A DNA stretch of 64,000 nt from a virus. This document shows positions 27,238 through 50,610 of this stretch, in pieces. How positions within the stretch are numbered: the stretch's first letter is position 1; every line of letters starts with the position of its first letter. The stretch is from positions 73,095 to 137,094 of the IMG/VR virus record IMGVR_UViG_3300042922_000836. One strand, given 5' to 3'. The notes beneath the pieces are model-generated. The model did no database searches and had not been told where the DNA came from. It was given only the letters and a program-made list of their open reading frames with translations. Position numbers and translations under genes: made by a program.

Positions 27238-27266
27238 TATAACAATTATTTTTACGATTTCCTTAC
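27238..27266 (-). promoter_or_regulatory. Phage promoter-like motif, copy 1 (upstream of clpX)
   Basis: GTAAGGAA-N15-GTTATA. Confidence 0.8.
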
Positions 27267-29587
27267 AAGACAAATTATAGAAGCTCATATTTCAGAACTT
27301 CTATATATCCATATTTTAAACAATTATTTATTTCTGTAACATCTTGATTTTCAATTTTGCTATTTGATTTTTTATATTCCATATTTCCAAATTCAATTTC
27401 TTTGGATATTAAACTTTTTAGCTTTTGTAAATTATCAGTAGATGCAATCAATTTCATACTATTATGAGTTTTCCATTTGTTACAACTAAAGAGAAGATAT
27501 GTATTTTCTTTATTTTCATCTTCATTATCCAAGCCAATCACACCTTTAAATTAAATTTTTCCAGACCAACATCTTCAAGATAATCTTGAAATGCATCATA
27601 TAATGATTTCGATTTATCGGTATAAAGAGGATGTGTTTTAAAATCATTAATTATTTTTATACTTAAATCAAAAACTTCATCACATACCATTTCTTTCTTT
27701 TCAAATACTCGGCAAAAATCATATCCCATAACTAAAAGTAAATATGCCTCTTCCTCAGAAAAGGATTTGTTACTGTTTTTTATATTATTAACATCAACCA
27801 TTGTTTTTCTCCTTTTATGTTTTAACTTTTTCTCATCATATAATAACTGAAACCATCTTCAGGTACTTCTTTAATATCGAAATTACCTGATGAATCTCCA
27901 CCGCTTTTTTTCCAAGCTTTTTCTTCTGCCTGTTTAATTTCATCTGCCATAACGACACCTACGGTAGTTGCTGTGAGTTCTCCTGTTCTCCTGTGAAAAT
28001 GATTTAAACTATAAAAATAAGGTTTCATTTGTTTATATCTCCTTTATATTATTCAGGTACTCCACATCCATCTTTAAAGACTGCTCCGCTAATTCTAAAC
28101 CATTTTGACATATGATCATAATCTTCGTCAGGAATAAAATTCACACCTTCAATATAATATTTTTCAGTTTTAGGAAAATTTCGTTTTAACTCTTTTATCA
28201 TATCGTCATTTGTTTTAATTGGCTTTTCTGTTTTTAAATAAAATGTATATTCTTTATTATGGTCGGTTTTTTCATTTTCTTCTCCATAATAATAAAACCA
28301 TATCTCATAATATTTTGTTTCATAATAATCTGATATTAAAACTTCGTGCTTGTCCTCATCATCGTCTGCCCAAGAAAGAGTACCATTTACATCACATAAT
28401 GGACATACATCAGTACCCCTATCTACAAGCATTAATTCTTCACAATTACAACATTTCACAAAATCAGCATATTCGCTATAATTATTGTTTTCAGGATTTA
28501 CCATGTTTTTAATACTCATATAATCCCCTTTAATTAGTAATCTGTTTCATTTTAGTTAATATATCATTTGCTAAATTGTAAATATAATTATCCTGTGTAT
28601 AATTTATTATCCGTTTTATATTTGTAAATGTTGGCTTTTCAATTATTGTTTTTAAATCCATTATTTCATCTTTTATCTCATTAATCAACATGATTGATGT
28701 ATTAAATTTTAATTGTTTCTCCCTTTCTTGAATAGCATTTATTATTGATTCTTTACATAATACCATTCTAAATCACTCCTTTCATGAATTTCTATAATTA
28801 TTTTCCTTGATAAACTATATTTTGAATTTTAACCGCCCTATTGCATATGTTATCTACAATATCTGCCAATCTACTATCGGTACAAAAATCAAATTGATGA
28901 CCATCCTTATTTAATTCCTCTATTGCAACATAACACTCAACTAACATTTTATATGAATTTTTTAAATGTTCTTTTACTTCATTTTTTGTCATTGTATTAT
29001 ATCTCCTTATTTTATTTATAACATATTGTTGTAAAATCTTGATAGTCATTTTTTGCCATACCATCCACAAATGAATTAAATGTAGTCAATTTCTCAACAA
29101 TAGCCTTTTCAGATTTTGTAAAATATCCACTAACCTCATTTTTTAATTCTTCTATTGTGTCAAAACTCATATATCTACCATATCTTCTTATTAATAATGT
29201 ATACATAATTAATTCTCCTTTAATTTTTATTTTTGGTGGTAGGTTTTCGGCAACCCACTAACACCGATTAAACATGCTAACCGCATATTTTTTCATCACC
29301 ATCAGAGAGTTCATAATCCTCTAACATTTTTTGATATTTTTTTGGTAATTCTTTATAATATTTTTTCACTCTATGACCGCTACTCCATTCATTCAAATAA
29401 TATTCTTCAATTACAAACTGGTGCAATTTATCACTATGTAAAATAACAGTTCCTAATCCTAAAACACCCTCTCTAACTGTTGTAACATCTCCCCCTTTTT
29501 CAAAATATCTGTTCATTAAGTTTTCAGCATTTGCTAAACTTATTTCATATGTTTTCATATATCTCCTTTTAATTTTATTTCTACTTA

Positions 29588-29616
29588 TATAACAATTAAA
29601 AAGCTAAATTCCTTAC
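29588..29616 (-). promoter_or_regulatory. Promoter-like motif, copy 2
   Basis: GTAAGGAA-N15-GTTATA. Confidence 0.8.
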
Positions 29617-30179
29617 ACTTATTACAATTTTTATTTTTTTATTTTAAAATGATCTATAATCTATCATCTGAAGTTCACCTTTTTATACCATATTAAACTT
29701 CTGTTAATTCATCAGCAAAAGCATCACATTCAATACCATCTTCAAATATAATTTTCCATATAGTTCCAACCTCTTCAAAATCATATTCAGATTCAACGAA
29801 ACGATTTATTACAGTACATTTTTGTTTATCATATTTTTTCCATTTACTATCTAAGCCTTGTGTATCAAAAATGCATATTTTACCTATAAGATTTCTCTTA
29901 TCTCTTTCCATTTGTTCTACAAATTCATTTGCTGTTAAAATATTTTTTTTACATAGTTTAACATATCCTGTTTTATCTGATTTATGGTTAATTTCTTGTA
30001 TATGATATTCATCTCCATTATTATCATAATATATATCATTAACTTTAAAATTAAACCAATTAACTATAATATTGTTTTTACTATTTTCTTTTAGTTCTTC
30101 TTCTAATTCTACAGAACATTCGACTGCATAATTATTAATTATCATTTAAAAATCTCCTTCCAATATCTATGTATATTTA

Positions 30180-30208
30180 TATAACAATTAAAAGAGATAA
30201 ATCCTTAC
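30180..30208 (-). promoter_or_regulatory. Promoter-like motif, copy 3
   Basis: GTAAGGAT-N15-GTTATA. Confidence 0.8.
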
Positions 30209-30580
30209 AAAATCGATTTATCGGTATTTTAAAATTTAATTTCTTGTCCAGTTGTAATAAATTCAGAATATACATCAATATCTGGGAAAGCTGGTATATA
30301 TTCGTATCTCGCAATATACAATTCGTTTCCTACAATTTTTCCGTATAATCTGTATGTATCGGTAAAGCCGACACTTTCTTCTGCGGTTAAATTGATTATG
30401 ACATTGTTTTCTTTCTTTACAACATAAATATGGTCTTGATTATCGTTTCTGAGTTCCAACATGACATTGTTTAATGTTTTTTTAGGGTTTCTAAGAAAGT
30501 CATTCCAGTTGTATACAAGTTTACATTTATTCATTTTTAATACCTCTTAAATTTCTATGTATAATTTCTTTTTACATTTA

Positions 30581-30609
30581 TATAACAATTAAAATATCAC
30601 ATTCCTTAC
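30581..30609 (-). promoter_or_regulatory. Promoter-like motif, copy 4
   Basis: GTAAGGAA-N15-GTTATA. Confidence 0.8.
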
Positions 30610-33919: not shown

Positions 33920-34264
33920 TCATTCGTCTTCATCTTCTTCATCTTCATCATCATCATCTTCATCTTGACAACAATACAAGGCATCGTCTTCATCATCATA
34001 TTCTTCACCGCAAATAGGACAGATATAAACATCCTCTTCTTCTTGATAATCAGCAAATCCGCAATTATAAGCTGTGGGATCGAGTTCTTTTAATGCATAA
34101 GCGGAATCATATGTATAACCGCAAATATCGACTGTACCATATGTTTCATTAAGCATATCATCATAATCATCTTCTGTATATTTTTCATGACTTTCATATT
34201 TAACTTCTAATAACTTTTTTGACATAATTTTTTCCCCTTTTAATATATCATGTGTAAAGCACAT
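33920..34264 (-). CDS. Extremely acidic protein with Zn-finger-like C-terminus
   Basis: YDDMLNETYG...LKELDPTAY, CPIC...CC, poly-D/E tail. Confidence 0.6.
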   Translation of the reverse strand: MCFTHDILKGEKIMSKKLLEVKYESHEKYTEDDYDDMLNETYGTVDICGYTYDSAYALKELDPTAYNCGFADYQEEEDVYICPICGEEYDDEDDALYCCQDEDDDDEDEEDEDE

Positions 34265-34568
34265 AATGGATAATAGTCTTTTTTCTGATAAATTTCAATT
34301 AAATCTCCTGAATTTTCAACTATAAGCTTACGCATATCATCTGATGTTAAAAATTTAATACTTTTCAAAAATGTGAGAACTTCTTTATTTGTTGCATTAT
34401 TATCAATATATAAATCATCAAATTCTATACATTGATTATTTATTTCATAACCATCTTCCTTGTTACCCAAAACATCGGTATAATTTATAAGCTTAAACCG
34501 ATTACATTTAGTTGTATTAACAACTTTATTTCTCATAAATTTCATCTCCTATTACGTATTGTCATCTA

Positions 34569-34597
34569 TATAACATTTAAAATTTCATTATCCTTAC
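34569..34597 (-). promoter_or_regulatory. Promoter-like motif, copy 5
   Basis: GTAAGGAT-N15-GTTATA. Confidence 0.8.
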
Positions 34598-36341
34598 ATC
34601 GGTTTATTCATATGAATAAAAGCTTAAAACATCAGAATCATAAAAACAACCATCATTAATATCGGCTGTGATTATTTTATATTCTTTACTTGTTTTTACC
34701 AATTTTATTAATGTTTTAAAATCATAAATGGTTGCATAATTTTTTCTTCCTACCCATTGTGATAAAGCTACATTTGTGGTATTTAAGAAAAAATGCATAT
34801 CTCTGATGTTTGTTCTGCATATCATTCCACCTTTTTGTTTGATCTTCATTAAAACATCATATTTCACATAATTTAAACCTTTAGATCCGATCCTTTCAAA
34901 TCTCTTTTTGCCTGTAACATAATCGGTTCTTAAAAAATATATTGCATTTTCAAACCCTGTAACTTTGTTTATATTTTCATATGTATCACATTTTACTTCA
35001 CCGATAAAATCAAAATTATCATTATAAGCTTCATAATTATACGTTTTTATAAATTCCATTTATTTTCTCCTTATGAATTTTAATTATCCTACTTTATCAT
35101 GCCACAGTAATCCTCTTGCCTCATAAAGAGGAATCCAATGTTCTTCATAAAAATCATATCCAGCACCGTCAATTCCAAATATATAACCTATATCATCTGT
35201 TTTATATATTCTAAAACCGCAATTTGCCATGATTTGTAAACCACCGTTTTCTTCCAACCACCATTTATCACAGCTATCTCCAAATTGCCACATAGTTCCC
35301 CACATAGGAAGAAAATCATCTCTTTGTACTTCAAAATCTTCTTCTTCAATTTCAACTACTTCATCATTAATTTCAGCTTTAATGTTTCCATTAGAAAGTT
35401 TTTCTATAATTTCACCATATTCACTATGGTTAAACGAATATATGTAATTTCCTACAGATGATGGTGTTATTTCGGTTATATCATCAATATTTTTAATATA
35501 TGCTCTTTTGATTAATACATGTGGAATAGCATTAAAACCATTAACCCATTGTTCACATGCTTCTTTTTTAGTCATTAATTTTATTCTCCTTTTATTACTT
35601 TTTATATTTACTATTCATCTGTAAATAATGAAAAACCATATTGAGCTATAACCAAATAATTTATATCATTTAAATTTTTACATACACTTATATCAAGTTT
35701 TTTATCATCAATAATAATTGCTTTAATATCATCTATTTCCGCATATATTTCAACTTCACCAGACCTGAAATCAAAATGTTTATACTTCATTTTTAAAGGC
35801 TCATTATCATCAATTTCCAGAAAAGATTTATGAAAATATTTGCGTTCATCATACCATCCAGATACTAAAATATAACCTCTTAACATTTTTATTCTCCTAT
35901 TAAATCCAATTATAATAATCGAGTGGCTCGTCATTTCTACGAAGATAATCTTCACATTCTTGACCTCTGTTCAACCATTTAAGAGCAATATCTTCCTTTA
36001 TATAAAGGACACCATCAATAACCTTATACATATCATTGTCTGGATTATTTTTATTTTGTTTATATAAATACTTTTGATAATCAAGTTCAGTGCATGTATT
36101 ATTCCAATATTTACAATTGTAATTATTTTCGTTCATCCAATCTTGACACATTTTATCTAATTTTTTCATATCACCCATATGGTCATATCTGCCTGTATAT
36201 TCTATTTTATCTAATAATTTTTCAGTTTCATCATCGACAATATGAATAATATGCTGTGTAAAATAATAATTAAAATTAATATGTTTTTCTTTATTTTTTG
36301 ACATTTTTATACCTCTTTCAATTTATAGAATATTATTTTTT

Positions 36342-36401
36342 GGTAATGACAGCCACCTTTGAGGTGGCTATTTCGGCTAATCAAGCCATCATCAGATTAC
36401 C
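36342..36401 (-). ncRNA. Type I hammerhead ribozyme
   Basis: - strand reads GGUAAU CUGAUGA U GGCU-UGAUU-AGCC GAAA UAGCCACC-UCAAA-GGUGGCUG UC AUUACC: full catalytic core, three stems, GUC cleavage triplet. Confidence 0.9.
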
Positions 36402-36419
36402 TTTTAATATCTTCATTTA

Positions 36420-36448
36420 TATAACAATTTAAAATATCCTTTCCTTAC
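36420..36448 (-). promoter_or_regulatory. Promoter-like motif, copy 6 (upstream of the hammerhead; contains the GATase stop)
   Basis: GTAAGGAA-N15-GTTATA. Confidence 0.8.
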
Positions 36449-37398
36449 ATTTTAATTTTTGTTTTTGTTTTTGTTTTTGTTTTCGGTTTTGTTGTTGTTT
36501 GAAGTTTCATAGGGATTTTAGGTTCAAGCCATACATCAACATACGATGCACTATCCTCATCAAATTTATAAGTTAGTCCTTGATGTGTTAAAGCAGAATA
36601 ACCAATCTTTTTAATTGCAGTATCAGTATCATAATCATAGAGATAAACATTATTATTTTTATCAATCATATATAAATTTGAATCATCTATTATTCCTTTA
36701 TTTGTTTTAACATATCCTTCGGAATCATCAAGCCACATTAGTTTTCTAACATCTAAATCAAAATCATTTAATTTATCATAATAATCATCCCACATGTCAT
36801 AAATACTATTAAAAATTCTTGGTTCATATGAACTATTGCTATATAAAATACCATCCTTTTCTTCAAAATTTCCAATTGTATAAATTTCACCCAAATCATC
36901 AAGAAAAGACATTTTACTTGTTATTGCATTATAAATTAATTTGTGACAAGTATTATCTTTATAAAAATCTTTCTTTAATTGTTTTATAGGAACTAATTGA
37001 GATATTATATATTCCATAGTATCAGAGATATTTTTTCTTGGCACTATATTAATAATACCATTATGAGCAACTCCTAAATTTGTTCTGAAAGATAATTTTT
37101 GCAATGCTTCTACATTTTCAATTATAGGGAAAGGATGGCAATTTTGCTGATTAACTCCACCATGTGTTGCTATCCTAAAATGCATTATAAGAGAAATATC
37201 TTTTAAATCTATTCGGCTTTTTAATTTATTTAATTGTTCCTTTAATTCTTCAAGTTTCATAAAGCCTTTTTCTATATTTACCATTTTATTTTCTGTCCAC
37301 ATGATACCCGCACCATCTGAATTGTTAGTCCACATTGTTTCAATCAATTCATCTGAAGGCATTTCTACACCCTTTGGTTTACAAGCAATTATACACAT
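36445..37398 (-). CDS. Class II glutamine amidotransferase
   Basis: N-terminal MC nucleophile, NSDGAG, HFRIATHG, CHPF, HNGII, SDT. Confidence 0.88.
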   Translation of the reverse strand: MCIIACKPKGVEMPSDELIETMWTNNSDGAGIMWTENKMVNIEKGFMKLEELKEQLNKLKSRIDLKDISLIMHFRIATHGGVNQQNCHPFPIIENVEALQKLSFRTNLGVAHNGIINIVPRKNISDTMEYIISQLVPIKQLKKDFYKDNTCHKLIYNAITSKMSFLDDLGEIYTIGNFEEKDGILYSNSSYEPRIFNSIYDMWDDYYDKLNDFDLDVRKLMWLDDSEGYVKTNKGIIDDSNLYMIDKNNNVYLYDYDTDTAIKKIGYSALTHQGLTYKFDEDSASYVDVWLEPKIPMKLQTTTKPKTKTKTKTKIKM

Positions 37399-38735: not shown

Positions 38736-38773
38736 TTTTATAATCCCCTTAAAGTTTATTTATATTTAAATTT

Positions 38774-38788
38774 ATTACTTTGTACGTT
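38774..38788 (-). promoter_or_regulatory. Operator-like motif
   Basis: attactt-tgta-cgtt, 2 bp from promoter motif copy 7. Confidence 0.6.
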
Positions 38789-38790
38789 CT

Positions 38791-38819
38791 TATAACAAAT
38801 AAAATCGGTATTTCCTTAC
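38791..38819 (-). promoter_or_regulatory. Promoter-like motif, copy 7
   Basis: GTAAGGAA-N15-GTTATA; operator-like motif adjacent at 38774-38788. Confidence 0.8.
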
Positions 38820-39203: not shown

Positions 39204-39232
39204 TATAACAATAAAAAACGTTATTTCCTTAC
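39204..39232 (-). promoter_or_regulatory. Promoter-like motif, copy 8
   Basis: GTAAGGAA-N15-GTTATA. Confidence 0.8.
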
Positions 39233-39697
39233 ATAACGTTTACATTATCAAGATTTATAACGGAAGATATACCCTCAATATAATATTCGCCACCATTGAT
39301 TGGAATGTATGTATCTAAGTCTTCATCAGACAATTCTTCAGCTTTATATAAGGGAACAGGAAAACCCTCCACACTGAATTCTTCATAATAATCATCAAGA
39401 GCTTTAATTAAATCACCATTTTCATCACAATTAACTATTATAAAATTTGTCCATGCTGTGCCTGAAATTAAATTTAATCTTAACATATTAAATCTCCTTT
39501 GCTGTTTCCCAAATTTCCAATATTAATTGTTTTAAATCAAAAAACATCATTATTTGTTTTTTAGTAAAAAGAAAATAAATACCCATAGGCAAGAATATTA
39601 ATACTGCTGTAATATCTTTTGTGATAAAAACATTAACTATTGAAATTGCCACAAGAATTAAACCGCATAATCTTTGTTTCATATGTATCTCCATTTT

Positions 39698-39712
39698 ATT
39701 ACTTTAATCGTT
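39698..39712 (-). promoter_or_regulatory. Operator-like motif
   Basis: attactt-taat-cgtt downstream of a SigA promoter. Confidence 0.6.
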
Positions 39713-39724
39713 CTTCATGTATTT

Positions 39725-39753
39725 ATATTACTACAATTTTTGCTATATGTCAA
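39725..39753 (-). promoter_or_regulatory. SigA-type promoter
   Basis: TTGACA-17 bp-TAATAT; operator-like motif just downstream at 39698-39712. Confidence 0.6.
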
Positions 39754-39796
39754 TATCCTTTTTTTTACAATGATTATTATTTTAAACGTTATTAGC

Positions 39797-39825
39797 AAAA
39801 AATAAAACTCCGTCATTAACGGAGT
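39797..39825 (-). terminator. Intrinsic terminator
   Basis: ACTCCGT-TAATG-ACGGAGT then TTTTATTTTTT on the - strand. Confidence 0.75.
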
Positions 39826-40262
39826 CTTATTTATTAATCAACTATTTTTAAAACATCATTAACATTAATATCAAATAATAGAGAACCATCCAAAGTTGGC
39901 TCAATATCGAAAACATCAATATTTTTTATAAACTCAATAAATTCAACTTTTTGGTCACGTTTTAAGTCAAATATATCAATTTTTATTTGAAAAAAGCCAT
40001 TTGTTTCTGTTGGCTCTATATTATCTATTGGTACAATTTCACCATTATATTCTATAACCAATTTTTTCATATATTCAATAGCCTTTTGATATTTTTCATA
40101 TTGTGGTTGATTAATGATAAATTTTTTGTCTTTTATGCTTTCCCTATATCTCCTATCCAGTTCCATTAAAAATTTTGCTAAAACTACATCTTTTTCTTCG
40201 GGAGTCATTAAATCCCTCCTTTATCAGACATAAATTCATCATTTCAAGTTTATTTTCAATTA

Positions 40263-40291
40263 TATAACAACAAGAAAGCTGAATTCCTTAC
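40263..40291 (-). promoter_or_regulatory. Promoter-like motif, copy 9
   Basis: GTAAGGAA-N15-GTTATA. Confidence 0.8.
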
Positions 40292-40602
40292 TTATAATAT
40301 TTCGGTGGTAACAATTTTTTGCCGATATAACTTGCAAGATTTTCACGTTTTATTGGTATTTCAACTTTAGATCTTGTAATTCTGCCACCATCAGTTTTTT
40401 GATTCCAATTTATATAATTGTTTTCAGTATCATAAAACCAAATTTCTATATATCCATCAACAAATCTTTGATTCTCAATCCGATTAATCGAAATAATTTT
40501 ATCTTTAAGTATAATGGTATCTCCGCTTTTTACTCTCCTGACTTTACCCATTTATAATAATTCTCACTTCCCTATTTCGTTGTTTTTATATTCAATCATT
40601 TA

Positions 40603-40824
40603 TTAATTTATTTCTTCTTCAACCATTTTCATGAATTCTTTGTCTTTTCTCAATTGTTCGCTGGCAAACTGCAATGCCCATCCATATTGCTTAACAGCTT
40701 TCATAACCACTTCACGATCATTACGAAGTTCAAGACTGACAAATTCTAATGTCATTCCACCTTCATTTTTTATTTTCTTTAATACGAATTCCTTATCCGA
40801 CCAATTTTCTCTCATGATTTCCAC
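40603..40824 (-). CDS. DUF4116-repeat protein
   Basis: DKEFVLK...LEFVSLELRNDREVVMKAVKQYGWALQFASEQLRKDKEF. Confidence 0.75.
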   Translation of the reverse strand: MEIMRENWSDKEFVLKKIKNEGGMTLEFVSLELRNDREVVMKAVKQYGWALQFASEQLRKDKEFMKMVEEEIN

Positions 40825-42090
40825 CTACTTAATAATCTTCAGATTCAATTGGTTCTTCCCAATTTTCAGGTGGTTTCAAGTGTTGACCAAACATATTATA
40901 CCACTCGCCACATTCACATTGACAAGCACCACAATATTGGTCAGTAAGTTCAACTTCTTTGCCACATTTATCACAAATTCCAACTGAAGGTTTCATATAA
41001 CTACTTTCATATTTTACAATACCTTTATCAATAAGATCAGGATGTTTACCATTAATACAATCATCATAATTTTCATTTGCTCTTGTATTATTTGGCTCTA
41101 TTTTTAAATTTCCTTCTTCATCGCAAGGAAAAGAAAACCCAAAATTATTTGTTTTATCCATAAACTCACGTTTATAATAAAAACTTGTAATTTTATGCCT
41201 TTGACTTATTATTTTCATATTATACCTCATCTGTTTCATTCTATAGCTGATTCTATGCTTTGAATAGCTTCATCCAAGTTATTTACAGCTTCGTCTAAGT
41301 TATCACGAGCCGATTCTGCTTGTTGATAACGTTCTGAGCCTTGCAAATTTTCAGGTATGTTATCGAGATATTCTTCTTCCTCATCTTTGATATTGTTTAA
41401 ATCATCACGCAGTTCATTAAGCTGGTCTATGATTTCTTGCAAAGATTTTCTTCTTTCTTTATTCATATATTTTTTAATCTCCTTTTATTTTTTATTCAAT
41501 TTTTCTATTTTCAAACTACCAACAATTAAATCAGCTAATAAATTATTATCTAAAACATTAAAATTATTAATCATCCCCTCATCAGTAAAATAATAAGGAT
41601 TTTTAATTTTTTGTAGTATATTTGGTCGTTCTTTTATAATATTGAATTCTTCAAACAGGTCTAATCCAATTAAATTGCAAACCTCATCCATATGATTCAT
41701 TTCTTTATCATCCTTATTTTACATTAATAACTTATATCCATGTGGAAAAAGTATTCACTTGAATTGTTTTCCATATCAAAAATAGTTTGCTGACTTTTAC
41801 CATTTAAATCATCTATATCTGCAAACAATATTGTTATTTCTTCTTTGTCAGAAATATCGCCCATATGCTCTCTAATATAATCATCTATTTCATCAGCAGT
41901 TACCACCGCTACAATATTTGTATTTTCATATGTTTTTATATCAAATATTTTATTATCCGTAGAAGATTTAAGGTTTGTCAAAGCCAAAATTCCTTTGGCA
42001 AACTTATCAATGTCATCATGACCTTGTATTGTATAACAAAAACCTTTTACTTTATTCAACTTAAACACCTCTTATTAATTTATTCATTTA

Positions 42091-42119
42091 TATAACAATA
42101 ATAACCTAAAATTCCTTAC
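42091..42119 (-). promoter_or_regulatory. Promoter-like motif, copy 10
   Basis: GTAAGGAA-N15-GTTATA. Confidence 0.8.
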
Positions 42120-42133
42120 ATGTCAATACTTTG

Positions 42134-42325
42134 TTAGGAATTTTTTGTATTTCTCTTATTAACATTCGGAACATATTCTTTAAAACAAACCATATTATTT
42201 TCTTCATCAATCAAAATTTCCATAGGCATACCCTCTTTAAGATTAAAAGGTATACTAACATCTTTCGGAATTAATACCTTGCCATTTTCATCGATACGTA
42301 CCATAATTTCTAAGCTTTTCAACAT
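42134..42325 (-). CDS. AbrB/SpoVT-family DNA-binding protein
   Basis: VRIDENGKVLIPKDV...LKEGMPMEILID; ATG at 42325 after AAAGGA. Confidence 0.75.
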   Translation of the reverse strand: MLKSLEIMVRIDENGKVLIPKDVSIPFNLKEGMPMEILIDEENNMVCFKEYVPNVNKRNTKNS

Positions 42326-42344
42326 AAACATTTCCTTTCGTTTA

Positions 42345-42373
42345 TATAACTTTTTGAATTGAATAATCCTTAC
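42345..42373 (-). promoter_or_regulatory. Promoter-like motif, copy 11
   Basis: GTAAGGAT-N15-GTTATA. Confidence 0.8.
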
Positions 42374-42424
42374 ATTCACATAAGCACCCAAACCGAAATT
42401 TCGATGCTTATATTAATCCAAGAA

Positions 42425-42453
42425 TATAACAATTGAAATTGATCTTTCCTTAC
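42425..42453 (-). promoter_or_regulatory. Promoter-like motif, copy 12
   Basis: GTAAGGAA-N15-GTTATA. Confidence 0.8.
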
Positions 42454-43181
42454 ATCATTTAAGTAACAATTTCACAACTTCTTCCGCAATACATAAATGA
42501 CTGTCACCCAAAACATTTATAACCCTTTGATAATCATTATCATAGGTTACAATAACAGCCTCTGTCAAATTATAAAGTTTATCACTAAAACGATTAAGTT
42601 TATATTCATAATCATTTTTGTATTCAAGCTTTTTCAAACCTCTTTCGCCTTTGAGAGCCTCAGACAATTTTTCAACAAACTGTCTTTTAGCCTCAAATTC
42701 TTCTTTATTCTCAATTTTTTCGGTTTCAGTTAATTTTTCGTACATATTATCAATCACCATTCTTAATTTATTTTATTTGATAGGTCATCAATATCAAACA
42801 TTGCTTTACTACCGTTCTGTAAATAATACAGCACAGCTTCATAAGCTTCAATCGCACCTTTACAATTATTATACATTGCAACAACTTGCGGATTTTTATC
42901 ATTTTCAAAATCTTTGGCATACTTTACCTGTTTTTCCATTGCTTTTTTAATGATAATTTTAAGTTCTGACATTGACTTAGCCATATATTTTAATCTCCTT
43001 AAATTATTTAATAGAAATAAGTCGCATTTTTTTCATTTTCATTTTATTGTCTGGAAATTCCTCATGGTAAATATTTTTCATTTTTTTAATTGCATCACCA
43101 ACATTTTTTGCAGTTATTTTGTATGGATTAGATTCTATGTAGCCTATAAATTTTTGCATATTTACATTCCCCTTTCATTTA

Positions 43182-43210
43182 CATAACAATTAAGATTAAA
43201 TATTCCTTAC
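43182..43210 (-). promoter_or_regulatory. Promoter-like motif, copy 13
   Basis: GTAAGGAA-N15-GTTATG. Confidence 0.75.
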
Positions 43211-43843
43211 CTTAAATCATTTTCTAAACAATCAACAATACATTTTGCTATAATATGTTTATCATATTCACACCAACGATTTCGACCTAAAACTCCCAAT
43301 CCATTACTTGAATAATCTTTTGTATCTTTTGCATATCGGTACATTATTTTATTATGTAAAGAATTACAACATGACCTTTCAGTTGTGAGATATACCACTT
43401 TGTTATTAACTGGATTTTTTACAAATCCACTGCAACCTCTTTTTTCACCATTAATTATGATATTTTTAAGAGAATATTCAAATCCATCATTAATATTTTT
43501 TACCGAATTTTTAATTGTTGTTGCTAAAAGAATTTCCTCATAATTAAGTTTCATTAATCAACCAGCTCCTTCATCATTTCATTTAATGCATTATAATCTA
43601 AATTACCGCTTATATATTTTATATGGTCTGGTGTTTTGTCATATTGCATACCCATATGTTTTATAAAGCTTGAATAAGGCTTTTTTGACTCCTTGTGATT
43701 TTTCATAAAATCAACTGCACTGCGATATAAAGGTTCTTCATTGTTTATCCATAATGAAACATTCCAAGTTGACTGATTTCTCCAACCATTGTAGTCTGTA
43801 TTTTCCATATTAGCACCTCATTAAAAATTTTTATCTACAATCA

Positions 43844-43872
43844 TATAACGTTTAAGATGATTAATTCCTTAC
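43844..43872 (-). promoter_or_regulatory. Promoter-like motif, copy 14
   Basis: GTAAGGAA-N15-GTTATA. Confidence 0.8.
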
Positions 43873-44580
43873 GTTATTTTTTCTTTACAGGTTTTACATT
43901 TTTATAAGCTATTAAATTTATGTAACCTATATATATATTTTTATCATAATATTCATTCATCATTATGTCGTGTAATTTATCATTTGCCTCATCATAATTT
44001 TTTGCGGTTATATTGTATTTGTCAAAATTTATAATGCCAATATATTTTCTCATATATTTGCCATTTCGTAATATTCTTCAATTTCGGTTGTCGGAAATTT
44101 ATTTGCAAAATAATTCGCATTATCATTATCAAAATCGTAAATCATTGAGCCTAAAGACATACCGTCTTTAACGATATATGTTATCGTTTCATCAAAAATT
44201 GCATATGCTTTAGCCATTATATATGCAGTAAAACTATCTTCAAAATATCCTATGACCGACATACCAAGTGAATTATTTTCATCATCGAATTTTATTTTTG
44301 TTACTTTATACATATATTTTATCTCCTATACAAATACATTCATCTTCCATGATACCGTCAAGCCATTCTAAAAGCTGTTTTTCATTTTTAAAATATAAAG
44401 GAAGAGCCAAACCGTCTGCATAAACTCTTAAAGAGTCTTTATCGGACTCAATAGGATCGAGAGCATAACCCATTGTTTCAAGTTTTTTAATTGTTGAATT
44501 TTTCAATTTTACTGCCATGATTTATTACCTCATTATTTTAAATTTAATTGTAGGATGATTTTTCAACCACCCTACAATCA

Positions 44581-44609
44581 TATAACATTTATATTAATAA
44601 TTTCCTTAC
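44581..44609 (-). promoter_or_regulatory. Promoter-like motif, copy 15
   Basis: GTAAGGAA-N15-GTTATA; a stem-loop (about 44547-44578) follows. Confidence 0.8.
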
Positions 44610-45070
44610 ATTGTCAATTTATCGATTTTTGCTTTGAGGATTTCTTTTCTTTCAGAAATTTTATTAATTTCAGTTCTTATATCATTTAACATAGACATAA
44701 ATTCAGCTAAAACTGAACCATCGAATGAATTATCAATTACTGAAAAGAACCGTTTATATTCAAATAATCTTACTTCATTAGTTCCCAATTTTTGATTGAT
44801 TTTATCATTTAATTTTTCAAACAAATAGAAAAGATGAGATTCTTCTACTTCCATAATTTCGTTTTTTAAGCGATTCATGTCTTCAGAATTATAACCAAGG
44901 TCTTTCAATGTATCATATACACCGTCATAATAGCTTTGATATGCAAGATAATCATCATCGTGTTCTTTTTCCTTATACATTCCGTAAGCATTTTTGAATC
45001 TTTTTTCAATTTGCGATTTCTGTTTTTTTGTCATGGTAAAACCACCTTTAAAAAATTTTATTTACATTTA

Positions 45071-45099
45071 TATAACATTCAGAATTAAATATTCCTTAC
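45071..45099 (-). promoter_or_regulatory. Promoter-like motif, copy 16
   Basis: GTAAGGAA-N15-GTTATA. Confidence 0.8.
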
Positions 45100-45608
45100 A
45101 AACAACATTTTCGCCTCATCAACATATTTATACTGATTTTGAACAGTCAACCATAAGGTAGATGTTTTAAGCGAGGTATCTATCTTTGCGTATGCATCCG
45201 CAAAGTGTTGTTCAACCTCTAAATTCGGAGTCGCATATATTCTTATATATTCATCCCTTTCTTTTAAATTTCGGTACTACACGCAGTTACTTTCACTGCC
45301 CTCATCCTCTATCGGCTCGTCAGCCTCACCTCTACCTCGTACCATTTTAACCTCTTTCATTAATTTGTTTATTGATTTTAATTATTTATTCAGTAAAAGT
45401 GTTTCATAAAAATCACCCCTTTTGCTTGATAAATTTGGCGAAATCGTCATCAATATTCATCATACTACAATTCAAAACTCATTCTATAATTCATCATTTT
45501 TCCATTTAAATTAAACTACCACTTGATAACCACCCTCTTTCAATTATGTAATTTTAAAAATCTTTAATTCCTACTAATTTTTTTCATAGAAATCACCTCT
45601 TTCACTTA

Positions 45609-45637
45609 TATAACGTTTCAAACATTTAATTCCTTAC
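45609..45637 (-). promoter_or_regulatory. Promoter-like motif, copy 17
   Basis: GTAAGGAA-N15-GTTATA. Confidence 0.8.
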
Positions 45638-45741
45638 CAAGTCATAAAACCACCCCTTTAAAGAATTTTTGCATGGATTATAAAACAATCATCTTTATTT
45701 CCCAACAGATGAATACACCGTTGAATTTTGTTTTACATTTA

Positions 45742-45770
45742 TATAACGTTTGCTTTGAGTATTTCCTTAC
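45742..45770 (-). promoter_or_regulatory. Promoter-like motif, copy 18
   Basis: GTAAGGAA-N15-GTTATA. Confidence 0.8.
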
Positions 45771-45836
45771 GGTAAATTATCCGTACAATCGAAGGCTTGA
45801 AGATTTATTTCCTCAAGCCATCTCAACACCTATAAT

Positions 45837-46337
45837 TTATCTTAAAACTGAAAATTTCGTTTCATATTCAACCGAGCCATATCTTGCTCTTATTTGTTCA
45901 AGTGACATTTTATGTTTATTTTTTGTGTTGTCTTCGGGCAAATGCCATGCCCAAGCTGTTTTGTTTTTACACCATGAAAAACCTAAACTTTTCAGCTTGT
46001 CTTTATATTGTAAGGTATTACCACTTATCCAGATCCATTTACCAACGAGTTCAACCTTGCATCCACCCATAAAAATTACCGAATTTATGATTTTTTGAAA
46101 TTCTTCAGGAGTTTCGGAATTTTCGGTTTTGCTTTCATAAACCTCATTTTCTATATTACGATGAATATTCTTATATATCATAAATGCTGTTTCATATTCA
46201 GCATTTATTTGTTGCATTATTACAGTAGTATCAATATCTTTATTAAGATCAGGATGATACTTTTTTGTGAGAACACGATATAATTCTTTTACATCTTCCA
46301 AAGTTTTAACATTTACAAAATATTTCATGATAAGCAC
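45837..46337 (-). CDS. J-domain (DnaJ-like) protein
   Basis: YRVLTKKYHPDLN...MQQINAEYE J-domain with HPD motif. Confidence 0.85.
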   Translation of the reverse strand: MLIMKYFVNVKTLEDVKELYRVLTKKYHPDLNKDIDTTVIMQQINAEYETAFMIYKNIHRNIENEVYESKTENSETPEEFQKIINSVIFMGGCKVELVGKWIWISGNTLQYKDKLKSLGFSWCKNKTAWAWHLPEDNTKNKHKMSLEQIRARYGSVEYETKFSVLR

Positions 46338-46374
46338 CTCATATTAAATTTTAAATTAAATTTCCTTGCAATTA

Positions 46375-46403
46375 TATAATACTTGAATTTAAGATTTCCT
46401 TAC
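46375..46403 (-). promoter_or_regulatory. Promoter-like motif, copy 19
   Basis: GTAAGGAA-N15-ATTATA. Confidence 0.75.
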
Positions 46404-46752
46404 GCAACGATTTCAAGGACTTTCATTCGGTCAGCCAATATCCATTGACCGCCTTGTGACTCAGGTCTATCATATGTAGAAAAATTTTCAACTTCGACTT
46501 TTACCCAAACTCTCGCACAGCCATTTTTAGGATTTTTACTTAAATGTGGTGCATATGGTGTAAAGGTACAATGCCATCCTTGACGAACCGCAAAACCTTT
46601 TGTCGGAATACATTCAGACTTCAACCATTGACCAACAGGAACAACATTTTTTGCACCAATAAACAAAGCACCCAGAGTTCCGTTTTTTCTTAATTTCATC
46701 AGTTTATAAGCTATCATTTTCAAAACCAACCTTTAAATTTTAATTACACTTA

Positions 46753-46781
46753 TATAACAATTGAATTAATTGATTCCTTAC
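46753..46781 (-). promoter_or_regulatory. Promoter-like motif, copy 20
   Basis: GTAAGGAA-N15-GTTATA. Confidence 0.8.
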
Positions 46782-47089
46782 GATATATAGCAATTATTTT
46801 CGATTCTGCCTGTTTGCATGGTATACCATGACATTACAAGCACATGATTATCAGTTTCCGCAATATCAATTTTTGTAGAGCCTTCGCTACCGCAAAATAT
46901 TCCGCAAAAAGGTGTTCCATCCTCATTGACCATAGTCAAGCCATTGTTTGCCAGAATTGTCTGTACCTCGTCAACTGCGACCTCATCACGATAGATCACA
47001 TCAGACAACTGATAATTACATTTTTTTATTGCCAACTTTAAACTTCCCATAATAGTTACCTCTTTTTTAATAATTTTGTGTTACACTTA

Positions 47090-47118
47090 TATAACAACAG
47101 AAAATTAGTTTTCCTTAC
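47090..47118 (-). promoter_or_regulatory. Promoter-like motif, copy 21
   Basis: GTAAGGAA-N15-GTTATA. Confidence 0.8.
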
Positions 47119-47120
47119 GC

Positions 47121-47780
47121 AAAATTATCTGCATAATAAAAAGCATGAAAATATCATGCTCTTGATTATGTATAAAATTTGTAATAATCGGCATGTAAGG
47201 CAATAGCAATCTCTATTTACTACTGCCTTATATGGAAACTAACAGATAACTGTTTGAATTTTTCCATACTACACCGACTACCTTTTTTTCATAGATTTTA
47301 TCACATCCTTTCATTGTACTCATCCCCATGACTTATAAACCAAACTTTAAATCATTATGTAAATTTTATTTGATTTTTTTGTTTGTTTTATCACTCTTTA
47401 CTCTTGACCGCTAAGAGTAAAGACTCGCCCACTGTTGCCAGTAAGAGAGTTATCGCCATGGGTACATTTTAACGAATTTTTCCAGAAACTAAGGTTATCG
47501 TGATTCTTACCCTATAGCGGTCAAAACAAAATACTTGCAATTACTTAATTTTGTCTATAGTTCCCATAAAAGGGAGTAAGAAAGTCATTCCTTCCAAAGT
47601 TTGCCATACAGGAGATTCTGTGAAAATTTCGCCAAAATGATGATTATTTGTTTGGTACAGTATTCGCTATTACGTGGCAACCGTATTAGTACCATTTAAG
47701 CTATAAATTTTTGTAATGATTTTTTGCATAATTTAAAACACTAAATATTTTTAATATTTTAAACTACATAAAAAAACTTT
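47121..47780 (-). ncRNA. Candidate large structured non-coding RNA
   Basis: No ORF of 60 aa or more; at least six hairpins, a GNRA-capped stem with G-U pairs on the - strand, a 10-nt loop-distal complementarity; directly downstream of five tandem promoter motifs. Confidence 0.6.
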
Positions 47781-47787
47781 ACATTTA

Positions 47788-48139
47788 TATAACACTTGAA
47801 AATCATTTTTCCTTACAAGCTTTTTTTACTGATTTTTAAATGTTTATTGCTTACGATAATATAACATTTAAAAACTTAATTTCCTTACATTGAATTTTTA
47901 TTGATTTTTCCATGCAATTATATAACATTTATAATCTTAATTTCCTTACATATTGCATTTAAGGAAATTTTAAAAATATACTTTACAATTATATAACACT
48001 TATTTTTTATGATTCCTTACAGATCGTAGTGTAACACTTTTGTCACACATTTTTAACTAAAATTTACCGATTGCATATTTGAATTATTTGTAAATTAATC
48101 TTTACAATAATATAACACTTAAAAACACTGATTCCTTAC
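47788..48139 (-). repeat. Tandem stack of five promoter-like motifs (copies 22-26)
   Basis: Copies at 47788-47816, 47860-47888, 47921-47949, 47992-48020, 48111-48139; all GTAAGGAA-N15-GTTATA. Confidence 0.9.
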
Positions 48140-48167
48140 ACCTAAAATTTACCAGTAAAAATATGGT

Positions 48168-48195
48168 AAAAAATAGGAGGCATCACTGCCTCCTA
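48168..48195 (-). terminator. Intrinsic terminator of the sigma-like gene
   Basis: TAGGAGGCA-GTGA-TGCCTCCTA followed by TTTTTT on the - strand. Confidence 0.85.
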
Positions 48196-48218
48196 AATCT
48201 TACCAGTATCGTCTGGGA

Positions 48219-49607
48219 TTATTTACCAAAATGTTTTTTAACCATTTTTTGGAATTTTTCTATTAAATACCATTTTTCAAGCTTGTTACAATATATGGTA
48301 TATAAGGAAATATTATCCATATATTCAATATCACTTTCTGTGTATTCCGACTCTTGACCGACTTTTAAATTATTATACACTTCGTGAGATTCAAGCCACT
48401 TGAAATAATTTACCATATTATGGTTAAAAGCACCGTCTATCACATGGTGTATATTAAAGTTACCGTCTTTTATCGCAGTATGTGAATTTTCGAGTTTGTC
48501 AAGGAACTTTGTACCCTTTGTGACTTTTTTGTGTCCTGTCATCAATTCTTCAATAGCTTGATAATCTTTACGTCTGTATGACTTAATTGCGTCAATATCT
48601 TTAAATTTCAATGCCACTTCACGAATTCGTGACATATGACCGCTTACGGTCTTCATACTGCATCCAACTTTTTCCGCTATTGCCAGATCCTGCCAGCCAT
48701 ATGACCGATATTTTAAAATTTGTGCCTGTCTGGGAGTAATTTCCTTTAAAAAGGAATTAATTAACTCATTTTCTCCAGATTTTTCCAGTAGCCTGTCAAT
48801 CTCGGAATTGACACAAATCTGGGAATAAATACCATTTTCACCGTTCTCATCAAGTGTGTCTTCAATGTAAAGTTTTCTTGGAACATAATCAACTTTTCTG
48901 TGAAGTTTTTCTTCCTCAATTAAACTGTCAATATTTACCAGTGTAACATTTTTATCGGCAATCATGCTGGCAATCTCTTCCAGTTTAGCGGTTGAAACTT
49001 CCACTTTTTGGTGCTTTAGGATTTTTCTGGCAATAATCAAATTATTGTAAAGTTTGGTATTTTCGGTATTTTTTACCATTTTATTATTTCCGTATAAGGA
49101 ATTTTTTACCATATTACAAGCTTTTAAAAATATTGATTTCATGGTATTTTTTGCCAGTATCATATCAGCATATTCACTGGAATTTAATTCCAGTCCGTCT
49201 TTTAATTTTTGCTCCAGTTTATACCAGTAATTTAAGGTTTCAATGGGTATTTTTACCAGTTCTTCATACATTGCTAAATAGGCAATATTTACCAGATCCA
49301 TAGAGTCATTGTTGATGCTTGACAAATTTTGGAAATTATTTACCATTTTAAGGTTATGAACTGACGGATTTTTTGACATAATATATTTGCAAGAATAACA
49401 TGCACATGTCACAGAAATGTCATATAGAATTTTCATTCTTAAAAGCGGGTATTTGGTAAACTTTTCCTTAATTTCTGCATTTACTTCTGCCAAAGTTTGG
49501 TAATTTTCAGGTACTACTAAATTTTCCATATTCTGGGCGATTAAAGGGTTTTTGGAATTTTCTTCCAGTGTGAGATTCTCCGAGTAAATTTTTACAGTTT
49601 TTTCCAT
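48219..49607 (-). CDS. Putative phage-encoded alternative sigma factor (region 2-like plus region 4/LuxR HTH, long insertions and C-terminal extension)
   Basis: SMDLVNIAYLAMYEE resembles ECF region 2.2; ITPRQAQILKYRSYGWQDLAIAEKVGCSMKTVSGHMSRIRE is a sigma-4/LuxR HTH. Confidence 0.65.
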   Translation of the reverse strand: MEKTVKIYSENLTLEENSKNPLIAQNMENLVVPENYQTLAEVNAEIKEKFTKYPLLRMKILYDISVTCACYSCKYIMSKNPSVHNLKMVNNFQNLSSINNDSMDLVNIAYLAMYEELVKIPIETLNYWYKLEQKLKDGLELNSSEYADMILAKNTMKSIFLKACNMVKNSLYGNNKMVKNTENTKLYNNLIIARKILKHQKVEVSTAKLEEIASMIADKNVTLVNIDSLIEEEKLHRKVDYVPRKLYIEDTLDENGENGIYSQICVNSEIDRLLEKSGENELINSFLKEITPRQAQILKYRSYGWQDLAIAEKVGCSMKTVSGHMSRIREVALKFKDIDAIKSYRRKDYQAIEELMTGHKKVTKGTKFLDKLENSHTAIKDGNFNIHHVIDGAFNHNMVNYFKWLESHEVYNNLKVGQESEYTESDIEYMDNISLYTIYCNKLEKWYLIEKFQKMVKKHFGK

Positions 49608-49693
49608 TTTTTAGTACTTCCTTTTTTAAAATATAATTTTAGTCAAAGGTTATAATTGCATATTCAATTTTCAACTAAACCTTCGCCATGACT

Positions 49694-49722
49694 ATAGTAT
49701 CACATTAAAGTTATTAAGTCAA
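49694..49722 (-). promoter_or_regulatory. SigA promoter of the sigma-like gene
   Basis: TTGACT-17 bp-TACTAT with TG extension. Confidence 0.7.
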
Positions 49723-50565: not shown

Positions 50566-50610
50566 TATCGTGTTGAAAGTAATAACACTTACAACAAAAG
50601 GAGAATTTAT

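What the first reader, a model, noticed from the sequence alone, without database searches (positions are those of the whole stretch)
27238..49722. Private transcription system: an atypical sigma-like protein and 26 copies of GTAAGGAW-N15-GTTATA
Seen: 26 copies, all on the - strand, all at gene boundaries or intergenic, with an invariant 15-bp spacer of variable sequence. They are confined to 27.2-48.1 kb and get denser towards a 462-aa gene with a sigma region-2-like segment and a region-4 HTH. That gene has a SigA promoter and a terminator insulating it from the array. Known: two fixed-spaced boxes are promoter geometry; GTTATA is the -10 of clostridial BotR/TetR sigma promoters; AGGA resembles the SigH -35; the combination matches neither. 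Inference: host SigA makes a phage sigma (about twice ECF size, with a roughly 125-aa C-terminal extension) that turns on a 21-kb regulon of small host-takeover or anti-defence genes.
Basis: partly seen in the sequence, partly recalled or inferred. Interest (0 to 1): 0.88.

Follow-up and report, generated by a model that had tools for sequence, protein, structure and literature searches.

The report
Phage sigma factor with 26 private promoters
A large temperate phage carries a very divergent sigma-type transcription factor gene followed by 26 near-identical two-box promoters, a self-contained switch of a known general kind whose protein and promoter sequence have not been described.

Summary
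GTAAGGAW-N15-GTTATA occurs 24 times exactly and twice with one mismatch. All 26 copies lie on the minus strand between 27238 and 48139 and nowhere else in the 137-kb genome. A 40-column matrix scores them at 33-46 bits; the next best site in the genome scores 8.5 bits. The conserved stretch is longer than first reported: tGTAAGGAA-N7-tTttAA-N-TGTTATATaA-N-TG-N-Aa.

The 462-aa gene is the genome's only sigma-like gene. Region 4 is clear. Region 2 is detectable only by profile methods, and the fold evidence for it is inconclusive. The gene has a SigA-like promoter and a terminator.

The genome is an SPbeta-like phage that also encodes the single-chain RNA polymerase YonO.

Best reading, about 60%: host SigA makes the phage sigma, which then reads the 26 promoters. 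These include five in tandem before a roughly 660-nt structured non-coding RNA.

The link between protein and motif is inferred. No RNA data, no relative carrying the motif and no complex prediction were obtained. The functions of the regulon genes are unknown. I class this as a new variant of a known kind.

The parts
48219..49607 (-). 462-aa divergent sigma-70-family protein (P0001). It has an N-terminal extension, a region-2-like helical domain (about residues 55-180, with a roughly 34-aa insertion), a three-helix middle domain, a region-4 HTH (about 280-335), and an unplaced C-terminal extension of about 127 aa.
   Evidence: for sequence; for folds.
49694..49722 (-). SigA-type promoter of the sigma gene (TTGACT-17-TACTAT with an upstream TG).
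   Evidence: sequence read.
48174..48195 (-). Intrinsic terminator between the sigma gene and the first motif copy.
   Evidence: 9 pairs, 5 G-C, then a T run; sequence read.
48111..48139 (-). Motif copy 1, first of five tandem promoters; no ORF follows.
47992..48020 (-). Motif copy 2 (tandem).
47921..47949 (-). Motif copy 3 (tandem).
47860..47888 (-). Motif copy 4 (tandem).
47788..47816 (-). Motif copy 5 (tandem), directly before the non-coding stretch.
47119..47780 (-). ORF-free, strongly structured stretch downstream of the five tandem promoters. It is a candidate non-coding RNA of about 660 nt ending in a hairpin followed by a T run.
   Evidence: no ORF over 36 aa; MFE -180 kcal/mol, z -9.6 against 20 shuffles; no Rfam family; no blastn match in the phage collection.
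47090..47118 (-). Motif copy 6, before the 90-aa ORF 46778-47050.
46753..46781 (-). Motif copy 7, before ORF 46400-46729. The upstream ORF stops at the TAA in the motif.
46375..46403 (-). Motif copy 8 (one mismatch, ATTATA), before the J-domain protein 45837-46337.
45742..45770 (-). Motif copy 9, before ORF-poor DNA containing micro-ORFs.
45609..45637 (-). Motif copy 10, before ORF-poor DNA containing micro-ORFs.
45071..45099 (-). Motif copy 11, before the 142-aa ORF 44606-45034.
44581..44609 (-). Motif copy 12, before ORF 44306-44518.
43844..43872 (-). Motif copy 13, before ORF 43554-43808.
43182..43210 (-). Motif copy 14 (one mismatch, GTTATG), before ORF 43004-43159.
42425..42453 (-). Motif copy 15, before ORF 42134-42379.
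42345..42373 (-). Motif copy 16, 80 nt after copy 15 and before the same ORF.
42091..42119 (-). Motif copy 17, before ORF 41724-42059.
40263..40291 (-). Motif copy 18, before ORF 39834-40208.
39204..39232 (-). Motif copy 19, before ORF 38816-39151.
38791..38819 (-). Motif copy 20, before the 448-aa amidoligase-like gene 37389-38735.
36420..36448 (-). Motif copy 21, before ORF 35900-36304, with a 115-nt leader holding a hammerhead-like element.
34569..34597 (-). Motif copy 22, before ORF 34240-34536.
30581..30609 (-). Motif copy 23, before ORF 30229-30534.
30180..30208 (-). Motif copy 24, before ORF 29693-30145.
29588..29616 (-). Motif copy 25, before ORF 29277-29558.
27238..27266 (-). Motif copy 26 (last), before the 391-aa ATPase-like gene 26039-27214. 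Replication genes follow it.

Best explanation
The window comes from a 137-kb temperate, SPbeta-like phage. Its leftward gene block opens with a very divergent sigma-70-family gene.

Proposed mechanism:
1. Host RNA polymerase with the housekeeping sigma transcribes this gene from an ordinary extended -10 promoter and stops at the terminator behind it.
2. The new sigma binds host core polymerase.
3. Its region 4 reads GTAAGGAA at about -35 and its region 2 reads TGTTATATAA at about -10. Transcription probably starts at the conserved A about 7 nt downstream.
4. This switches on 26 promoters spread over 21 kb. About 20 sit directly before small genes, with no terminators between them, so transcription accumulates along the block. 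Five stand in tandem before a structured non-coding RNA of about 660 nt.
5. Late genes on the other strand are presumably left to the phage's YonO polymerase.

Shown here: the sites, their geometry and placement, the sigma-family kinship of the protein, and its promoter and terminator.
Inferred: that the protein binds core, that it reads these sites, the start site and the timing.
For: Sites:
- There are 26, all co-directional with the genes, and none elsewhere in the genome.
- Matrix scores are 33-46 bits against 8.5 for the next best position.
- The spacer length is fixed, and conservation runs from the -35 box to a putative +1.
- 19 of 26 sites are followed within 19-115 nt by a Shine-Dalgarno sequence and a start codon.
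- Read in any register, the -10 box lacks either the A at -11 or the T at -7 that housekeeping sigmas need. This is a reading of the consensus against textbook knowledge.

Protein:
- GerE/region-4 HTH, E 6.4e-7.
- The NCBIfam sigma70-ECF model matches P0001 at 27.9 bits (below its cut-off). It matches the relatives over regions 2 to 4: P0011 at 44.5 bits (cut-off 42.9), P0009 at 41.2 bits and P0010 at 39.3 bits.
- P0009 aligns to P0001 over residues 48-334, E 3.9e-10.
- hhalign of the family against 12 sigma factors of one bacterial genome: region 4 at 96.8% probability, E 3e-10. The N-terminal segments alone gave 79.8%, E 1.4e-5, pairing DLVNIAYLAM with region 2.2 and FLKACNMVKN with region 2.3-2.4. 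The reversed control gave 0.6% and 20 column shuffles gave at most 0.9%.
- 49 of the 50 Foldseek rows shown for the whole model are sigma chains, although the best E is only 4.7e-3. VIA-align gave sigma region 4 Z 8.4 and whole ECF sigma H Z 8.1.

Link between protein and sites:
- It is the only sigma-like gene in the genome.
- It is the first gene of the block, with a SigA-like promoter and a terminator 35 nt before motif copy 1.
- Five other YonO-encoding phage records lack both the motif (at control level) and a homologue.
Against: - There is no direct evidence of transcription. The only run holding this DNA is the source DNA run.
- No second genome carries either the motif or a close homologue, so co-occurrence cannot be tested.
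- P0001 itself does not reach any curated sigma cut-off. Pfam Sigma70_r2 finds nothing in the genome.
- The fold of the N-terminal domain alone (pLDDT 90.8) gives sigma domain-2 matches only at Z 4.9-6.0. These are mixed with unrelated helical bundles, and the top hit is a protein of unknown function at Z 7.0. Foldseek gives nothing.
- TGT-TATATA can also be read as an extended -10, so some host SigA activity cannot be excluded.
- The C-terminal 127 aa are unexplained.
Confidence: 0.6

Rival explanations
1. Host housekeeping sigma reads the extended -10 (TGnTATATA). The GTAAGGAA box at -35 is bound by an activator or sigma-remodelling factor, possibly the 462-aa protein acting as a LuxR-type activator. 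This would resemble T4 middle promoters with MotA and AsiA.
For: The consensus contains TG, one base, then TATATA. The best direct family hit of P0001 is the LuxR/GerE HTH, and LuxR/NarL-type regulators head the PDB sequence search. The fold evidence for a sigma domain 2 is inconclusive.
Against: No register of the -10 box has both the A at -11 and the T at -7. The G before TTATA is kept in 25 of 26 sites and the box is conserved over 10 bp, more than an extended -10 needs. Region-2 homology of the family is detectable.
Confidence: 0.17
2. The sites are promoters for the phage's own single-chain RNA polymerase YonO, with or without the sigma-like protein as its specificity factor.
For: The genome encodes a full-length YonO homologue (842 aa; 52% identical to SPbeta YonO, 60% to that of Clostridium phage D-1873). 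Passages of PMC5467207 say the promoter sequence and any cofactors of YonO are unknown. Very stringent, long promoters are typical of phage polymerases; this last point is my own knowledge.
Against: In SPbeta, YonO transcribes the late structural genes as one operon from a single start (PMC5467207 passages). Here the sites lie only in the early-type block on the other strand. Five other YonO phage records have neither the motif nor the protein.
Confidence: 0.07
3. A host alternative sigma reads the sites, for example a SigH-like or a TcdR/BotR-like factor of a clostridial host. The 462-aa protein would do something else.
For: The -10 is identical to the BotR/TetR -10, GTTATA, within the same ATGTTATAT context (PMC3610760 passages). 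AGGA at -35 recalls SigH (recalled, not tested).
Against: The -35 differs from the TTTACA of group 5 sigmas (PMC4031146 passages). Tying a 26-promoter phage programme to a stationary-phase host sigma would be odd. The phage carries its own sigma-like gene at the head of the block.
Confidence: 0.05
4. The elements are mainly protein-binding or recombination sites rather than promoters. They could be operators of a master repressor (as SPBRE is for MrpR in SPbeta), or junctions for exchange of gene units by the neighbouring tyrosine recombinase.
For: SPbeta has a repeated 15-bp element bound by its repressor at 9 peaks (PMC10516654 passages). A 263-aa tyrosine-recombinase-fold gene lies divergently next to the sigma gene. 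Eight upstream ORFs end exactly at the TAA inside the element.
Against: The element has two unlike boxes with no dyad symmetry, is strictly co-oriented with the genes, and sits at promoter distance from start codons. These roles would also not exclude promoter function.
Confidence: 0.06

Closest known systems
Bacillus phage SPO1 sigma cascade (gp28, then gp33/34)
   Same: Host SigA makes a phage sigma, which redirects host core polymerase to a class of phage promoters with their own -35 and -10 boxes. The abstract of PMC13401047 was seen in the listing; the rest is my own knowledge.
   Different: SPO1 is virulent, whereas this phage is temperate and also has YonO. No sequence match to any of 50,697 phage records. 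The boxes differ; the SPO1 middle consensus is recalled only. This protein is 462 aa with unexplained extensions.
TcdR/BotR/TetR/UviA group 5 sigma factors of clostridia
   Same: Same -10 hexamer GTTATA, in the same ATGTTATAT context.
   Different: The -35 here is GTAAGGAA rather than TTTACA. The SRQ marker of region 4.2 is absent (S-M-K at the aligned place). hhalign of the family against BotR of phage c-st gave 1.7% probability.
SPbeta-group phages (YonO late polymerase; MrpR repressor with SPBRE)
   Same: Genome size, YonO homologue, large serine recombinase, block layout.
   Different: SPBc2, Perkons, a D-1873 contig, PMBT24 and TR-TP1 have no homologue of the protein and no excess of the motif. 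SPBRE is a 15-bp operator at 9 peaks. I did not see its sequence, because the figure is not held.
T4 middle promoters (MotA box plus host -10, with AsiA)
   Same: A conserved box replaces the -35, alongside a -10-like element. This comparison is my own knowledge.
   Different: The protein here is sigma-like, not MotA-like. The -10 box is unlike the host consensus at key positions.

Membership tests
sigma-70 family | Region 4 (sigma domain 4) helix-turn-helix | tested here: met
   Pfam GerE, E 6.4e-7, 29.4 bits against a cut-off of 23.5. TIGR02937 matches residues 215-330 to model positions 85-159. hhalign 96.8%, E 3e-10, against 12 sigma factors. VIA Z 8.4, rmsd 1.6 over 56 residues, to SigF region 4.
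sigma-70 family | Region 2 (sigma domain 2: core binding and -10 recognition) | tested here: met
   Met only by profile methods. hhalign on the N-terminal segments gave 79.8%, E 1.4e-5, against at most 0.9% in 21 controls. The relatives match TIGR02937 from model position 5 or 24, and P0011 is above the cut-off. P0001 alone gives no Pfam Sigma70_r2 hit. The fold is inconclusive: sigma domain-2 rows at Z 4.9-6.0 lie among unrelated helical bundles.
sigma-70 family | Binds core RNA polymerase and directs initiation at its promoters | not testable with these tools
   Needs biochemistry or 5'-end mapping.
TcdR/BotR group 5 sigma factors | -10 element GTTATA | tested here: met
   24 of 26 sites carry GTTATA exactly. 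The literature -10 was read in passages of PMC3610760 and PMC4031146.
TcdR/BotR group 5 sigma factors | -35 element TTTACA and the SRQ motif in region 4.2 | tested here: not met
   The -35 box is GTAAGGAA in all 26 sites. In the alignment with BotR of phage c-st, S-M-K stands where S-R-Q does. The markers come from PMC4031146 passages.
TcdR/BotR group 5 sigma factors | Sequence kinship with a member | tested here: not met
   hhalign of A1 against BotR of phage c-st gave 1.7% probability, aligning 33 columns of the HTH only. Only one member was tested.
SPbeta-type repressor operator (SPBRE/MrpR) | Short repeated element bound by a catalytically dead tyrosine-recombinase-fold repressor | tested here: inconclusive
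   A recombinase-fold gene is adjacent, but it keeps R, HxxR, H and Y at the aligned catalytic places. The element here is bipartite and directional.
Integron-like attC or other tyrosine-recombinase core sites | Inverted-repeat arms around a crossover spacer | tested here: not met
   The consensus has no dyad symmetry: the reverse complement of GTAAGGAA does not occur in the conserved part.

The most novel reading that the evidence does not exclude
The phage gates its whole lytic programme through one orthogonal sigma-promoter pair. In lysogeny only the single SigA promoter of the sigma gene would need to be shut, perhaps through the cluster of CTGGTAAA boxes around it, because the 26 downstream promoters are unreadable by the host. 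Once made, the sigma fires the accessory block and a heavily transcribed structured RNA, and YonO then takes the late genes. That would give three successive polymerase specificities in one temperate phage. The promoter elements would also serve as the seams at which gene units are swapped.
Probability: 0.3. Interest if true: 0.72.

Novelty: new variant of a known kind. Interest (0 to 1): 0.6.

Why it matters
Phage sigma factors with their own promoter class are textbook. This one differs in four ways:
- It belongs to a tiny, unnamed and very divergent branch: 12 relatives among 1.84 billion representative proteins, and none among 50,697 phage records.
- It sits in a temperate SPbeta-like phage that also has the YonO polymerase.
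- Its promoter class is unusually clean, with 26 sites at 33-46 bits and nothing in between.
- Part of its regulon is five tandem promoters before a large structured RNA.

If confirmed, it would add a middle tier to the SPbeta-type transcription programme. It would also give a compact orthogonal sigma-promoter pair for Gram-positive engineering, and a natural case in which silencing one promoter silences a 21-kb regulon.

Tried and rejected
Relatives:
- The search for homologous proteins returned only the query itself.
- tblastn of P0001 against the phage collection found nothing.
- Megablast of 46000-50000 found nothing.
- The search for related loci with P0001, P0002 and P0008 in viral contigs found nothing.
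- The listing of cluster members showed ten relatives as singletons from metagenomes. Two are named 'sigma-70 family' by their source.

Motif elsewhere:
- The tandem pattern gave 3, 17 and 6 loci in viral, metagenome and genome contigs. Each holds only one full motif.
- On inspection these were CRISPR repeats, other tandem repeats or coding DNA.

RNA evidence: no RNA holder was listed. The one DNA run is probably the source.

Complex: the N-terminal domain folded with residues 1-420 of a clostridial beta-prime gave no answer.

C-terminal extension: no usable look-alike.

Literature: a string search for the boxes returned only unrelated primers and similar. Searches found no paper on a sigma factor in SPbeta-type phages.

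Supplements are closed. The YonO start-site figure, the SPBRE logo and their supplements could bear on the rival explanations, and I did not see them.

Rfam at gathering level found no family in the window.

Full report
**1. The observation**

The pattern GTAAGGAW-N15-GTTATA has 24 exact matches in the window, all on the minus strand. 100 shuffles expect 0.01. Allowing mismatches adds two sites with one mismatch each, making 26.

The window is the last 64 kb of a single 137,094-bp contig whose ends overlap. IMG/VR classes the record as having direct terminal repeats. The whole genome holds the same 26 sites and no others. 26 of its 28 GTAAGGA heptamers belong to the motif, and only one spacer length occurs.

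Aligning the sites with their flanks shows a longer element: tGTAAGGAA-N7-tTttAA-N-TGTTATATaA-N-TG-N-Aa. Sequence outside it is unconserved. A 40-column matrix scores the sites at 32.9-45.7 bits. The next best position on either strand scores 8.5 bits, the level of shuffled genomes. The class is all-or-none.

**2. Placement**

By my script, 19 of 26 sites are followed within 19-115 nt by a Shine-Dalgarno sequence and a start codon. One more (46781) qualifies by eye.

The remaining six sites are:
- the five tandem copies at 47788-48139, followed by 662 nt with no ORF over 36 aa;
- one of the two copies at 45609-45770, which precede DNA holding only micro-ORFs.

Twenty sites have an upstream ORF of at least 45 codons ending nearby. 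Eight of these stop at the TAA inside GTAAGG, one stops at +13, and eleven stop 3-83 nt upstream.

Apart from the one behind the 462-aa gene, the scan of 40-52 kb lists no other minus-strand terminator within the array part it covers (40-48.2 kb). Transcripts should therefore add up along the block there. 27-40 kb was not scanned.

**3. The protein**

The 462-aa product hits Pfam only through a GerE/LuxR HTH at residues 290-329, with a weak Sigma70_r4_2 match. PHROGs gives a weak sigma family hit.

It has no near relative in 5.8 billion clusters and no tblastn match in 50,697 phage records. An exhaustive phmmer search of 1.84 billion representatives finds 12 relatives of 169-567 aa.

Aligned (A1), the relatives share three features:
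- an N-terminal D-x-x-D-L-V/I-Q-x-A segment;
- an A-F-x-x-A-C-K-A-V-R-x-Y segment;
- a C-terminal HTH.

NCBIfam's sigma70-ECF model matches the relatives across regions 2 to 4: P0011 at 44.5 bits (above the 42.9 cut-off), P0009 at 41.2 and P0010 at 39.3. P0001 itself scores only 27.9 bits, over the region-4 half. P0009 aligns to P0001 over residues 48-334.

I built a reference alignment from 12 sigma-family genes of one bacterial genome. hhalign against it gave 96.8% for region 4. For the N-terminal segments alone it gave 79.8%, E 1.4e-5. That alignment places P0001's NNDSMDLVNIAYLAMYEEL on regions 2.1-2.2 and IFLKACNMVKNSLY on regions 2.3-2.4, with a 34-aa insertion between them. The reversed control gave 0.6% and 20 column shuffles gave at most 0.9%.

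**4. Folds**

The whole-protein model is only partly confident: mean pLDDT 62, good for residues 56-240 and 280-335, and poor for the last 127 residues. Foldseek found no match at E below 1e-3, yet 49 of the 50 rows shown are sigma chains. VIA-align gave region 4 Z 8.4 and whole ECF sigma H Z 8.1.

Residues 55-245 folded alone reach pLDDT 90.8. The search with that model is not discriminating. The best hit is Z 7.0 to a protein of unknown function. About 16 of the 50 rows are sigma domain-2 structures at Z 4.9-6.0, mixed with terpene synthases and designed bundles. Foldseek found nothing. I therefore rest the region-2 call on sequence profiles, not on the fold.

**5. Surroundings**

The genome encodes an 842-aa homologue of YonO, the single-chain RNA polymerase of SPbeta. 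It is 60% identical to that of Clostridium phage D-1873 and about 52% identical to those of the SPbeta group.

Other identified genes are a terminase, a portal, a large serine recombinase and ribonucleotide reductase, and primase, helicase and exonuclease.

Plus-strand genes run from 123.7 kb across the contig join to 46 kb. Minus-strand genes run from 122.7 kb down to 47 kb, and the sigma gene is the first of them. It is the only match to the sigma70-ECF model in the genome, and Pfam Sigma70_r2 finds none.

Motif copy 1 begins 35 nt after the terminator.

**6. Mechanism**

The two unlike boxes, the fixed spacing, the strict co-orientation and the distance to start codons are promoter properties.

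The -10 box can be read as TGT plus TATATA, but no register has both the A at -11 and the T at -7. The box is also conserved over 10 bp. This argues for a dedicated reader rather than host SigA. The only candidate reader in the genome is the sigma-like protein at the head of the block.

I put the joint reading at about 0.6: host SigA makes the phage sigma, which fires the 26 promoters. The steps from 'sigma-family protein' to 'binds core' and 'reads these boxes' are inference.

**7. Tests of the rivals**

[quoted passage not shown] Five YonO phage records carry neither an excess of the motif nor a homologue of the protein. The one exception is a weak HTH-only hit in PMBT24.

*Group 5 clostridial sigmas.* Passages of PMC3610760 and PMC4031146 confirm the -10 GTTATA, the -35 TTTACA and an SRQ marker. 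Here the -35 differs, SRQ is absent, and hhalign against BotR of phage c-st gives 1.7%.

*Operators.* SPBRE in SPbeta is a 15-bp repressor site at 9 peaks (passages of PMC10516654). I could not see its sequence.

*Recombination sites.* The element has no dyad symmetry.

**8. What the regulon encodes**

Of 47 ORFs in the block, PHROGs matched 15 families. Nearly all have no known function; the exceptions are an amidoligase and an antitoxin-like family. Pfam adds a J-domain protein, an amidoligase and an amidotransferase.

'Host takeover or anti-defence' is therefore untested.

The 662 nt after the tandem promoters fold with z -9.6. They match no Rfam family and no phage record.

**9. Novelty**

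Phage sigma factors with their own promoter class are long known. The new elements here are:
- the divergent protein branch;
- the box sequences;
- the setting in a temperate YonO phage;
- the cleanness of the class;
- the tandem-promoter RNA.

I found no relative with the motif and no paper on it. My class is 'new variant of a known kind', with interest 0.6.

Noticed in passing
window 47119-47780 (-): A 662-nt ORF-free stretch lies behind five tandem copies of the promoter. Its predicted fold is -180 kcal/mol, z -9.6 against 20 shuffles, and it ends in a hairpin plus a T run. It matches no Rfam family and no phage record. It is probably a highly expressed structured phage RNA of unknown role.
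   Followed up: partly
window 48063-49818 (-): ACTGGTAAA occurs 5 times in the 137-kb genome, all on the minus strand within 1.7 kb around the sigma gene (48156, 48942, 49260, 49740, 49810). Three near-copies lie at 48071, 48207 and 49295. One abuts the -35 of the SigA-type promoter, two flank the terminator, and three lie inside the gene, where they encode L-V-N/K-I using the rare CTG codon. They are candidate operator boxes.
   Followed up: partly
window 50611-51402 (+): A 263-aa tyrosine-recombinase-fold protein is transcribed divergently from the sigma gene. It has no recognisable N-terminal core-binding domain, but R, HxxR, H and Y stand at the aligned catalytic places. Its nearest matches are small 'integrases' in the middle of Streptococcus prophages. 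It could be a regulator like MrpR of SPbeta or an active Xer-like enzyme.
   Followed up: partly
window 36343-36422 (-): A hammerhead-like element lies in the 115-nt leader after motif copy 21. Rfam RAGATH-1 hammerhead scores 26.4 bits (gathering score 56.3), E 0.012 in a 211-nt search, with CUGAUGA, GAAA and a 9-bp stem present. It is not reported at gathering level.
   Followed up: partly
window 36420-46781 (-): Eight upstream ORFs take their stop codon from the TAA inside GTAAGG (sites 46781, 46403, 44609, 43210, 40291, 39232, 38819, 36448). Only one ORF runs on, to +13, and one doubtful ORF to +30. This fits tight packing, or gene units joined at the element.
   Followed up: yes
window 45100-45735 (-): This ORF-poor stretch lies behind two promoter copies. 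It holds several micro-ORFs of 3-27 codons, each with a strong Shine-Dalgarno sequence. Its fold z-score is -3.0.
   Followed up: no
window 49750-50600: About 850 bp between the sigma gene and the recombinase-fold gene has no convincing ORF and a higher G+C content (0.36 against about 0.27). It was not examined further.
   Followed up: no
G000 1502-4030 (+), outside the window: A full-length YonO homologue (single-chain RNA polymerase) is present. The genome is a distant, low-G+C member of the SPbeta-like phages, assembled from a soil metagenome.
   Followed up: partly
window 54206-63311 (+): The plus-strand block opposite the array holds two Bro-N/antirepressor-type genes, four N6/N4 DNA methylase genes and a metallophosphatase.
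   Followed up: no
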